Below are positions 40,992-41,461 of a stretch of 64,000 nucleotides of DNA, in pieces. The DNA comes from Giardia intestinalis (lineage: Eukaryota), in NCBI GenBank assembly GCA_000002435.2, contig CM018789.1; one strand, given 5' to 3'. The notes under the pieces were generated by a model that was not told the origin of the DNA, searched no databases, and saw only the letters and a program-made list of their open reading frames with translations. Numbering within the stretch: position 1 is the stretch's first letter; each line of letters starts with the position of its first letter. Made by a program: the position numbers and the translations under genes.

Positions 40992-41183
40992 TCAAAAAGT
41001 GAACGCTGGGCTGGTCATCAGAGAGGATCCCGGGAACCTGGACAAAAAGCGTACCCGCTGCTCCGAATACTTGTCATCGGGACTAAATTTTGCAGGATGT
41101 GCGGTGCGAGTCACGACCCCACAGTGCGGACAAGCCTCTTCGAGCGTGTATGCGTCGCATGAGGGACACTTACAAAGAATCAT
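40992..41183 (-). CDS. NOP10: H/ACA snoRNP subunit Nop10, with retained four-cysteine zinc-ribbon N-terminus
   Basis: 63 aa: 'MILCKCPSCDAYTLEEACPHCGVVTRTAHPAKFSPDDKYSEQRVRFLSRF'. The second half matches eukaryotic Nop10 'SAHPARFSPDDKYSRQRV'. The first half matches the archaeal Nop10 zinc ribbon 'CPKCG.YTLKE.CP.CG'. Confidence 0.85.
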   Translation of the reverse strand: MILCKCPSCDAYTLEEACPHCGVVTRTAHPAKFSPDDKYSEQRVRFLSRFPGSSLMTSPAFTF

Positions 41184-41191
41184 TTTTATAA
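41184..41191. promoter_or_regulatory. 8-bp AT-rich shared spacer (TTTTATAA) between the divergent Nop10 and RING-H2 start codons
   Basis: CAT at 41181-41183 is the Nop10 ATG on the minus strand and ATG at 41192 is the RING gene; only 'TTTTATAA' separates them, which fits Giardia's short bidirectional AT-rich initiators. Confidence 0.5.
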
Positions 41192-41461
41192 ATGGAAGAC
41201 ATAGAAAAGCCGTCTATCACGATTAAAAACTGGTACGCCGTGGTGGAGTGGTCCTATAACATCGACGAGGCCAATTGCAGCATATGCAAAAGCCCCCTCT
41301 CCGAGCTATGCCCCGAATGTGCCGACCTCCTCACTCCTGTTTGCAGATCCGTGCGAGGGAGGTGTGGGCACGAGTATCACACGCACTGTATTCAGCAGTG
41401 GGTCGACAGTAACAAGACATGTCCATTATGCATGGCCGATTGGGTTGTTTCGGAGTGCTGA
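41192..41461 (+). CDS. RING-H2 finger protein of the Rbx/APC11 family (RING-box protein)
   Basis: 89 aa: 'NWYAVVEWSYNIDEANCSICKSPLSELCPECADLLTPVCRSVRGRCGHEYHTHCIQQWVDSNKTCPLCMADWVVSE' has the W..W...D.C.IC...CP.C...C....G.C.H.FH.HCI..W....CPLC..W layout. The C-terminal 'CPLCMADWVV' is closest to Rbx2/RNF7 'CPLCQQDWVV'. Confidence 0.8.
   Translation: MEDIEKPSITIKNWYAVVEWSYNIDEANCSICKSPLSELCPECADLLTPVCRSVRGRCGHEYHTHCIQQWVDSNKTCPLCMADWVVSEC

What the first reader, a model, noticed from the sequence alone, without database searches (positions are those of the whole stretch)
40992..41461. Nop10 retaining an archaeal-type Cys4 zinc ribbon, head-to-head with an Rbx-type RING gene across an 8-bp spacer, next to UTP14
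The 63-aa Nop10 has the eukaryotic C-terminal 'AHPAKFSPDDKYSEQRV' box. It also keeps the full archaeal zinc-ribbon 'CKCPSC...YTLEEACPHCG', which yeast and human Nop10 have lost. I have not seen this noted for a eukaryotic H/ACA snoRNP, and it fits Giardia's many archaeal-like traits. Its ATG (41183) and the ATG of an Rbx/APC11-type RING-H2 gene (41192) are separated only by 'TTTTATAA'. This is an extreme bidirectional promoter. The RING protein's 'CPLC...DWVV' ending looks Rbx2-like rather than APC11-like, which matters because Giardia reportedly lacks an APC/C. UTP14, another nucleolar factor, is the convergent neighbour of Nop10.
Basis: partly seen in the sequence, partly recalled or inferred. 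Interest (0 to 1): 0.5.

Follow-up and report, generated by a model that had tools for sequence, protein, structure and literature searches.

The report
Giardia Nop10 keeps ancestral zinc ribbon
This is the ordinary, already annotated Giardia Nop10 gene lying back-to-back with an Rbx-type RING gene; its four-cysteine zinc ribbon is real, but many other protists have it too, so it is an old eukaryotic trait and not a Giardia peculiarity.

Summary
This includes a 63-aa Nop10 (40992-41183, minus strand), an 8-bp spacer TTTTATAA, an 89-aa RING-H2 gene (41192-41461, plus strand) and a convergent UTP14 gene. The organism is Giardia duodenalis. The genes are already annotated as NOP10 (GL50803_8242) and almost certainly GL50803_8241, published as "RING-box protein 2 / Nedd8 E3 ligase".

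The CxxC-x8-CxxC motif (C6, C9, C18, C21) is real, under purifying selection, and modelled as a zinc knuckle. It is not special to Giardia. Named Nop10s from Spironucleus, Chilomastix, Carpediemonas, Barthelona, Tritrichomonas, Acrasis and Entamoeba keep all four Cys, as do dozens of eukaryote-type metagenome sequences. Red algae show half-decayed forms. The ribbon is most simply an ancestral eukaryotic state lost in animals, fungi, plants and others. Reviews still call the ribbon "unique to archaea", so this is a small correction.

The RING is Rbx-type, not APC11-type. Rbx1 versus Rbx2 cannot be resolved, and "DWVV" is not conserved in assemblage B. The 8-10 bp head-to-head spacing is conserved within G. 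duodenalis and fits Giardia's known compact AT-rich initiators. The Nop10 neighbourhood is different in Spironucleus.

The parts
40992..41183 (-). Nop10 (H/ACA snoRNP subunit) coding sequence, 63 aa; published Giardia id GL50803_8242
   Evidence: ORF; Pfam Nop10p 6.6e-21; 97% identical to the annotated G. duodenalis ATCC 50581 Nop10; gene id from PMC11427974
41121..41168 (-). Codons for the zinc-ribbon knuckles, C6-x2-C9 ... C18-x2-C21
   Evidence: Residue-by-residue alignment to Pyrococcus furiosus Nop10, whose Cys line up. All four Cys are kept in three Giardia lineages. The AF2 N-terminal domain has pLDDT 84-87 and superposes at 0.5-0.7 A on the matched stretch of archaeal aIF2gamma crystal structures.
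41184..41191 (.). 8-bp AT-only spacer TTTTATAA between the two divergent ATGs; proposed shared initiator-like element
   Evidence: Sequence. Assemblage B and a third lineage have 10-bp AT-rich equivalents. It resembles published Giardia initiator variants such as TTTTTAAAATG and AAAATAAAATG (PMC3792122). No transcription start data for this site were seen.
41192..41461 (+). Rbx-type RING-H2 protein, 89 aa, with all 12 ligand positions for three zinc sites and the N-terminal W-x-A-V-x-x-W strand; almost certainly GL50803_8241
   Evidence: Pfam zf-rbx1 67.7 bits > zf-ANAPC11 44 bits, calibrated. PDB hits: RBX1 57.1, RBX2 56.3, APC11 45.9 bits. Alignment. Literature label. The gene number is adjacent to NOP10 GL50803_8242.
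38899..40923 (+). UTP14 homologue, convergent neighbour of Nop10 (68-bp gap); a neighbour only, not part of a functional unit
   Evidence: Pfam Utp14 3.8e-25. Adjacent in assemblage B and a third Giardia lineage but not in Spironucleus.

Best explanation
This is a normal, compact stretch of the Giardia duodenalis genome carrying three unrelated housekeeping genes.

1. Nop10. It is the standard small subunit of the H/ACA pseudouridylation RNP. By homology it docks on the catalytic domain of Cbf5. Its N-terminal domain is still a Cys4 zinc ribbon (C6, C9, C18, C21), as in archaea. It very probably binds one Zn2+ that stiffens the small beta-hairpin domain. Its linker and C-terminal tail are of the eukaryotic type. 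The ribbon is an ancestral eukaryotic character retained in several protist lineages: Metamonada, at least one heterolobosean and Entamoeba. It decayed in other lineages, including opisthokonts, green plants and stramenopiles, with red algae as intermediates.

2. RING protein. It is an Rbx-family RING-H2 protein with three zinc sites. It most likely recruits a charged E2 (ubiquitin or NEDD8) in an organism where no cullin has been recognised.

3. Transcription. The two genes are transcribed divergently from an 8-10 bp AT-only spacer that acts as an initiator-like start region for both. This would give near-leaderless mRNAs, with any upstream promoter elements lying inside the neighbour's coding sequence.

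Shown: gene identities, cysteine conservation, taxonomic spread, spacer conservation. Inferred: zinc binding, Cbf5 docking, start-site usage, E2 recruitment.
For: Identity:
- Pfam hits for Nop10, Rbx and Utp14.
- 97-99% identity to annotated Giardia proteins.
- Published gene ids.
- A Giardia H/ACA snoRNA, GlsR27, lies in the same window.

Zinc ribbon:
- Ungapped alignment to the Pyrococcus zinc-ribbon Nop10 at 54.5 bits, against 40 for yeast and 33.7 for human.
- WB versus assemblage B: 25 synonymous and 2 non-synonymous codon differences, with every Cys kept.
- AF2 model pLDDT is 84-87 over residues 1-30. Its best PDB matches are archaeal Nop10. Its first 24-25 residues superpose at 0.5-0.7 A on archaeal aIF2gamma crystal structures and about 0.7 A on Spt4; I know these stretches to be zinc ribbons.

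Eukaryotic descent:
- Residues 26-47 match a yeast-type Nop10 (P0254) at 15/22 by hand count, against 11/22 for Pyrococcus.
- The tail aligns with the eukaryotic RFGLLPTQQP tail.

Spread of Cys4:
- Spironucleus, Chilomastix, Carpediemonas.
- Tritrichomonas (two species), Acrasis kona, Entamoeba histolytica.
- Barthelona.
- 49 of 138 eukaryote-tailed sequences retrieved carry Cys4 (a biased sample).
- Decay series: CxxC..CxC forms, Cyanidiococcus with 3 Cys, Galdieria with 2 Cys.

RING:
-.
- The literature reports NEDD8, UBA3 and UBC12 but no cullin or Skp1.

Promoter:
- Spacers of 8, 10 and 10 bp, nearly all A/T (the third lineage has one G/C pair), in three lineages.
- Window-wide ORF gaps of 11-48 bp are common, and a second divergent pair sits 16 bp apart.
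- Giardia's AT-rich, roughly symmetrical initiator, very short 5' UTRs and bidirectional initiation between adjacent genes are published.
Against:
- No solved eukaryotic Nop10 has a zinc ribbon, so docking on Cbf5 is inferred by homology only.
- The taxonomic sample is biased: the query and profile themselves contain Cys4, and only the top 120 of 4110 hits were visible. The frequency among eukaryotes is therefore unknown.
- Most Cys4 eukaryote-type sequences are unnamed metagenome proteins, classed as eukaryotic only by their tail motif.
- No transcription start data were examined for this spacer. Transcripts could instead start inside the opposite gene.
- An Rbx protein with an intact cullin-docking strand but no known cullin is not explained.
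Confidence: 0.85

Rival explanations
1. The zinc ribbon in Giardia and other protist Nop10s was regained from archaea by gene transfer or gene conversion, rather than inherited from the first eukaryotes.
For: Over the whole protein, Giardia Nop10 scores higher against Pyrococcus Nop10 (54.5 bits) than against yeast (40) or human (33.7). The structural search also ranks archaeal Nop10 first.
Against: The higher archaeal score comes from the Cys-containing N-terminus. The linker and tail are eukaryote-type (15/22 versus 11/22 identities). Cys4 occurs in at least three eukaryotic supergroups, on sequences that are otherwise canonical eukaryotic Nop10 (for example P0178, P0167). Graded decay forms exist. 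Many independent transfers would be needed.
Confidence: 0.04
2. The four cysteines are a vestige: the domain folds as the plain beta-hairpin of yeast and human Nop10 and no longer binds zinc.
For: Yeast and human Nop10 work without zinc (reviews), so the metal is dispensable in principle. Partly decayed forms exist in red algae.
Against: All four Cys are invariant across three Giardia lineages despite 28-30 nucleotide differences in 192 bases. They are also invariant across distant protists. A vestige should decay, as it has elsewhere. The AF2 model places the N-terminus in the geometry of solved archaeal zinc-ribbon stretches (0.5-0.7 A).
Confidence: 0.08
3. The 8-bp spacer is not a shared start region. 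Each gene is transcribed from a promoter buried in the other gene's coding sequence, giving overlapping antisense 5' leaders.
For: Giardia initiates promiscuously from AT-rich patches inside genes, and some 5' UTRs are long. An AT-rich patch, GATTAAAAACT at 41221-41231, lies about 40 bp upstream of the Nop10 ATG inside the RING gene.
Against: Most Giardia 5' UTRs are under 20 nt, and efficient translation is reported to need short leaders. The spacer is nearly pure A/T in all three lineages, ends in the A-run-then-ATG context typical of mapped initiators, and its length and base composition are conserved.
Confidence: 0.2
4. The RING protein is the remnant APC11 of a lost anaphase-promoting complex, not an Rbx.
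For: It passes the zf-ANAPC11 gathering score (44 versus 25 bits). Its short length and CPLC ending resemble APC11.
Against: Human RBX1 and RBX2 give the same cross-score on zf-ANAPC11 (49.7 and 46.5), whereas true APC11 scores 129.7. PDB scores favour RBX1 and RBX2 by about 11 bits. The literature assigns the APC11-like label to a different Giardia protein, GL50803_8432.
Confidence: 0.07

Closest known systems
Archaeal Nop10 (e.g. Pyrococcus furiosus, PDB 2HVY chain C; Methanocaldococcus jannaschii, 2APO and 2AQC)
   Same: Same CxxC-x8-CxxC zinc-ribbon N-terminal domain, the same AHPxxFSPxD linker, similar length. It is the best sequence match and the best fold match.
   Different: The Giardia linker reads SPDDKYS and the tail is the eukaryotic RF...TxxP type rather than the basic archaeal tail. 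The partners are eukaryotic (Cbf5, Gar1, Nhp2 orthologues listed in PMC11427974).
Yeast and human Nop10 (PDB 3U28, 7BGB)
   Same: Orthologous subunit of the eukaryotic H/ACA snoRNP. The linker and C-terminal helix and tail are conserved (invariant Y12, A28, H29, P30, A31, F33, P35, R43).
   Different: Yeast and human proteins lack the four Cys and have a plain beta-hairpin instead.
Nop10 of other protists (Spironucleus, Chilomastix, Carpediemonas, Barthelona, Tritrichomonas, Acrasis, Entamoeba)
   Same: Eukaryote-type Nop10 that keeps all four Cys.
   Different: Only details: Giardia has an extra Cys4 residue and a diverged tail (RFPGSSLMTSPAFTF). The gene neighbourhood differs in Spironucleus.
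RBX1 / RBX2 (RNF7) RING-box proteins of cullin-RING ligases
   Same: N-terminal WxAVxxW strand and all 12 zinc-ligand positions. Pfam zf-rbx1 is the best hit. 38% identity to RBX2 and 35% to RBX1. Already published as RBX2-like.
   Different: No cullin or Skp1 has been found in Giardia. The last ligand is Cys, as in RBX2 and APC11, but the HxH-C motif is RBX1-like. The insert between the zinc sites is shorter. The C-terminal DWVV is not conserved within Giardia.
Giardia AT-rich initiator and bidirectional promoters (Teodorovic 2007, PMC1885649; Tolba 2013, PMC3792122)
   Same: A short AT-rich element abutting the ATG. Divergent transcription between adjacent genes and very short 5' UTRs.
   Different: The published worked example (ran/phd) has a 153-bp spacer. 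Here the whole intergenic region is 8-10 bp, so a single initiator-sized element must serve both genes.

Membership tests
Nop10 (Pfam PF04135, H/ACA RNP subunit) | Profile match above the curated cut-off | tested here: met
   74.6 bits against a cut-off of 27.2, covering profile positions 5-49 of 52
Nop10 (Pfam PF04135, H/ACA RNP subunit) | Conserved linker (A-H-P-x-x-F-S-P-x-D) and aromatic Y12 that contact Cbf5 and RNA in solved complexes | tested here: met
   Y12, A28, H29, P30, A31, F33, P35 and R43 are invariant in a 56-sequence alignment
Nop10 (Pfam PF04135, H/ACA RNP subunit) | Physical association with Cbf5 and H/ACA RNA | not testable with these tools
   Cbf5, Gar1 and Nhp2 orthologues and H/ACA snoRNAs exist in Giardia (GlsR27 in this window), but no binding data were examined
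Zinc-ribbon (archaeal-type) Nop10 | CxxC-x8-CxxC in register with the archaeal zinc ligands | tested here: met
   C6, C9, C18 and C21 align without gaps to the Cys of Pyrococcus Nop10
Zinc-ribbon (archaeal-type) Nop10 | Zinc-ribbon fold of the N-terminal domain | tested here: met
   AF2 pLDDT 84-87. Superposes at 0.5-0.7 A over 24-25 residues on archaeal aIF2gamma crystal structures, and archaeal Nop10 is the top hit. This is a prediction only.
Zinc-ribbon (archaeal-type) Nop10 | Stoichiometric Zn2+ binding | not testable with these tools
   Needs metal analysis of the protein
Rbx / RING-box proteins | Rbx-type RING-H2 profile scoring above the APC11 profile | tested here: met
   zf-rbx1 67.7 versus zf-ANAPC11 44.0. 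This is the same pattern as human RBX1 and RBX2 and the opposite of APC11.
Rbx / RING-box proteins | Twelve ligands for three zinc sites, plus the N-terminal beta-strand that inserts into a cullin | tested here: met
   C29, C32, C40, C43, C51, C58, H60, H63, H65, C66, C77 and C80 align with the RBX1 ligand positions (numbering of the RBX1 ligands is from memory). KNWYAVVEWSY aligns with KKWNAVALWAW.
Rbx / RING-box proteins | A cullin (or APC2) scaffold partner in the same genome | not testable with these tools
   A published Pfam-based inventory found no cullin or Skp1 in Giardia. No cullin domain was found in the 20 window ORFs scanned. The whole genome could not be searched here.
Rbx2 (RNF7) subtype specifically | Closer to Rbx2 than to Rbx1 | tested here: inconclusive
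   73.2 versus 70.5 bits and 56.3 versus 57.1 bits. The DWVV motif becomes AWVT in assemblage B. The H-x-H-C motif is Rbx1-like.
APC11 | Strong match to the APC11-specific profile | tested here: not met
   44 bits, equal to the cross-score of RBX1 and RBX2, whereas human APC11 scores 129.7
Giardia initiator-type bidirectional start region | AT-rich element of about 10 nt abutting the ATG on both strands | tested here: met
   CATTTTTATAAATG. 10-bp AT-rich equivalents occur in two other lineages. The published variants are similar.
Giardia initiator-type bidirectional start region | Mapped transcription starts on both strands within the element | not tested
   Published TSS-seq data exist (PMC3792122) but per-site data were not available here

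The most novel reading that the evidence does not exclude
The last common ancestor of eukaryotes had a zinc-ribbon Nop10. The ribbon was lost several times independently, in opisthokonts, green plants, stramenopiles and others, with red-algal and CxxC..CxC forms as caught-in-the-act intermediates. This would contradict the review-level statement that the ribbon is unique to archaea. It would also give H/ACA biochemists natural eukaryotic zinc-ribbon complexes to compare. A second open thread is that Giardia keeps an Rbx with an intact cullin-docking strand plus the NEDD8 machinery. That hints at an unrecognised, highly diverged cullin-like scaffold.
Probability: 0.5. Interest if true: 0.4.

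Novelty: already known. Interest (0 to 1): 0.3.

Why it matters
The practical weight is small. The genes are annotated, and compact divergent gene pairs are a known Giardia feature.

One modest point is worth recording. Current reviews state that the Nop10 zinc ribbon is unique to archaea. In fact it is widespread among protists from several supergroups. This changes the inferred ancestral state of the eukaryotic H/ACA RNP. It also shows that loss of the metal site happened late and repeatedly.

The cullin-less Rbx is a real puzzle, but it is already in the literature and was not created by this window.

Tried and rejected
- Word-indexed protein searches with the single Giardia sequences returned only Giardia itself. 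An exhaustive phmmer run and a profile search were needed.
The CxxC..CxC group could not be assigned to a taxon.
- Literature searches found no open-access paper noting Cys4 in protist Nop10. Khanna et al. 2006 (tried by DOI; DOI recalled from memory) was not held, and Hamma 2005 and Reichow 2008 were not looked up. Prior mention cannot be excluded.
- Model coordinates are not exposed, so Cys-Cys distances could not be measured. A Nop10-Cbf5 complex could not be modelled, because Cbf5 is not in the window and prediction is single-chain only.
- Rfam and tRNA scans of the locus, including the AT-rich gap downstream of the RING gene, found nothing above noise.
- I considered and rejected a functional Nop10/UTP14/RING gene cluster. 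The adjacency holds only within G. duodenalis and is absent in Spironucleus and in an unnamed metagenome relative.

Full report
**What is in the sequence.**
- The minus-strand ORF 40992..41183 encodes a 63-aa protein. The plus-strand ORF 41192..41461 encodes an 89-aa protein. The eight bases between the two ATGs read TTTTATAA.
- Pfam assigns the first protein to Nop10p (74.6 bits, cut-off 27.2). It assigns the second to zf-rbx1 (67.7 bits), with a weaker zf-ANAPC11 hit (44 bits). The 674-aa convergent neighbour (38899..40923) is Utp14.
- Both start codons are secure. A TAA lies in frame directly before the RING ATG. Nop10 M1 aligns with the first Met of its homologues.
- By alignment to Pyrococcus Nop10, the zinc ligands are C6, C9, C18 and C21. 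C4 is an extra cysteine that no other retrieved homologue has at that position.

**Whose genome, and are the genes known?**
- The proteins are 97% and 99% identical to annotated Giardia duodenalis proteins.
- The window carries the Giardia H/ACA snoRNA GlsR27.
- The literature lists NOP10 as GL50803_8242 (PMC11427974).
[quoted passage not shown] My comparison with human RBX2 gives 38.5%. The gene numbers are adjacent, so this RING is almost certainly GL50803_8241.
- Both genes, and the Rbx2-like label, are therefore already published.

**Is the zinc ribbon real?**
- Giardia Nop10 aligns without gaps to Pyrococcus furiosus Nop10, cysteine for cysteine. The score is 54.5 bits, against 40 for yeast and 33.7 for human.
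- Between the window and assemblage B, the gene differs at 28 of 192 bases. That is 25 synonymous and only 2 non-synonymous codon changes. A third Giardia lineage behaves the same way, and all four Cys are invariant.
- An AlphaFold2 model built on a 56-sequence alignment has pLDDT 84-87 over the N-terminal 30 residues.
- Foldseek ranks archaeal Nop10 first. It superposes the first 24-25 residues at 0.5-0.7 A on archaeal aIF2gamma crystal structures and at about 0.7 A on Spt4. That these matched stretches are zinc ribbons is my own knowledge.
Zinc binding remains an inference.

**Is it special to Giardia? No.**
- An exhaustive phmmer search and a profile search recovered many Nop10s with the eukaryotic linker and the eukaryotic "GLLPTQQP"-type tail that still carry CxxC...CxxC.
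- The named examples are:
  - Spironucleus salmonicida, Chilomastix caulleryi and Carpediemonas membranifera;
  - Tritrichomonas foetus and T. musculus, Acrasis kona and Entamoeba histolytica;
  - Barthelona sp..
- These belong to Metamonada (Fornicata, Parabasalia, Barthelona), Discoba (Heterolobosea) and, from my own knowledge, Amoebozoa (for the first two).
- In my admittedly biased sample, 49 of 138 eukaryote-tailed sequences have Cys4. Some of these are otherwise nearly canonical crown-eukaryote Nop10, for example MHLMYCNICSKYTLTKHCTQCN...KRFNILPTQ.
- There is a visible decay series:
  - CxxC...CxC forms;
  - Cyanidiococcus with one Cys plus CPxC;
  - Galdieria with C...CPDG;
  - vertebrates with only the CP of the second knuckle.
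- The simplest reading is that the first eukaryotes had the ribbon and several lineages lost it.
Pyrococcus has AHPPRFSPEDPYGEYR, and archaeal-looking hits carry AHPAKFSPDDKY.
- The C-terminal half is nevertheless closer to eukaryotes. Residues 26-47 match a yeast-type sequence at 15/22 (hand count against P0254) and Pyrococcus at 11/22. The tail is eukaryote-type. This argues against acquisition from archaea.

**Has this been noted before?**
- Reviews state that the ribbon is "unique to archaeal Nop10" and replaced by a beta-hairpin in eukaryotes (PMC7991803; PMC1865073).
- I found no open-access paper mentioning four-Cys Nop10 in protists.
- Khanna et al. 2006 (tried by DOI; DOI recalled from memory) was not held, and the other primary structural papers were not looked up. 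Prior mention cannot be excluded.
- This is a small correction to a textbook generalisation, not a new kind of protein.

**The RING gene.**
  - RBX1 88.6 / 49.7;
  - RBX2 78.6 / 46.5;
  - APC11 73.9 / 129.7;
  - Giardia 67.7 / 44.0.
- PDB searches agree: RBX1 57.1, RBX2 56.3, APC11 45.9 bits. The protein is therefore Rbx-type.
- Rbx1 versus Rbx2 cannot be decided. The scores are 73.2 versus 70.5 bits. The final ligand is Cys as in Rbx2, but the H-x-H-C motif is Rbx1-like. The "DWVV" ending reads AWVT in assemblage B.
- All twelve zinc-ligand positions and the N-terminal W-x-A-V-x-x-W strand, which in RBX1 inserts into the cullin (my own knowledge), are conserved.
- Published inventories nevertheless found no cullin or Skp1 in Giardia, while NEDD8, UBA3 and UBC12 are present. 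That mismatch is a real puzzle, but it is already in print and cannot be addressed from this window. No cullin domain was found in the 20 window ORFs I scanned.

**The 8-bp spacer.**
- The head-to-head arrangement with UTP14 downstream is conserved in assemblage B and in a third Giardia lineage. Their spacers are 10 bp and AT-rich: TTATAATAAA and TTGTAATAAA in Nop10 orientation.
- In this window, ORF-to-ORF gaps of 11-48 bp are common, and another divergent pair sits 16 bp apart by longest-ORF calls.
- The relevant Giardia features are all published:
  - extremely short intergenic regions and promoters of about 60 nt (PMC1885649);
  - 5' UTRs mostly under 20 nt and as short as 1 nt (PMC3792122);
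  - an AT-rich, roughly symmetrical initiator with variants such as TTTTTAAAATG and AAAATAAAATG;
  - cases of bidirectional initiation at the same nucleotide between adjacent genes.
- The spacer here (CATTTTTATAAATG) fits that picture. It is the tight end of a known distribution. Start sites at this locus were not examined.

**The neighbourhood.**
- In Spironucleus, Nop10 lies next to Vps4-like and other unrelated genes.
- In an unnamed metagenome relative, it lies between ribosomal protein L29 and a V-ATPase subunit.
- The Nop10/UTP14/RING adjacency is therefore a Giardia-level accident of gene order, not a functional cluster.

**Verdict.**
- The locus is ordinary and already annotated.
- The one point of wider interest is that the zinc ribbon of Nop10 is an ancestral eukaryotic feature kept by many protists, contrary to what reviews say.

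Noticed in passing
window 1890-2002 (+): Full-length match to the Giardia H/ACA snoRNA GlsR27 (Rfam RF02490, 143 bits, gathering score 100). It ends one base before the stop-codon end of the minus-strand ORF 2003-3997.
   Followed up: no
window 41462-41993: About 530 bp with no ORF of 60 aa or more starting at ATG, downstream of the RING gene. 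It dips to 32-40% GC, which is unusually long and AT-rich for this tightly packed region. No Rfam hit above noise.
   Followed up: partly
window 29469-32354 (-) and 32371-34008 (+): A second divergent pair only 16 bp apart by longest-ORF calls. The minus-strand gene is a histidyl-tRNA synthetase whose Pfam domain starts at residue 438, so it has either a long N-terminal extension or a downstream true start.
   Followed up: no
window 35110-35913 (+) and 35906-37699 (-): Convergent ORFs (a Kelch-repeat protein and an unassigned 597-aa protein) overlap by 8 bp at their 3' ends.
   Followed up: no
window 41172-41174 (-), Nop10 residue 4: Giardia Nop10 has a fifth cysteine (C4) just before the first knuckle. 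It is conserved in three Giardia lineages but not seen at that position in any other homologue retrieved.
   Followed up: partly
L001 722-991 (assemblage B RING gene): The RING protein evolves much faster than Nop10 between assemblages (27 synonymous and 14 non-synonymous codon changes, against 25 and 2). Its C-terminal residues change from ADWVVSEC to AAWVTVDC.
   Followed up: partly
window 37846-38646 (+): Glucosamine-6-phosphate isomerase gene with a Cys-rich C-terminal tail (CCQATNQASCCGSTSCH). The upstream gap is 146 bp. A cited study reports 146-nt and 280-nt 5' UTRs for Giardia glucosamine-6-phosphate isomerase expression. This may be a coincidence.
   Followed up: no
window 11192-16792: Other genes in the window: a cyclin-like protein (11192-11860), the SBDS ribosome-maturation factor (11904-12659) and a HECT ubiquitin ligase (14021-16792). 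Several very large ORFs (1661-1670 aa) have no Pfam match.
   Followed up: no
P0182, P0189, P0176, P0244 (metagenome and NCBI proteins): A group of eukaryote-type Nop10s with CxxC in the first knuckle but CxC in the second (for example MHLMYCDTCKVYTLKKQCQCASPT...). The taxon is unknown. They may be an intermediate in ribbon decay or an alternative metal site.
   Followed up: partly
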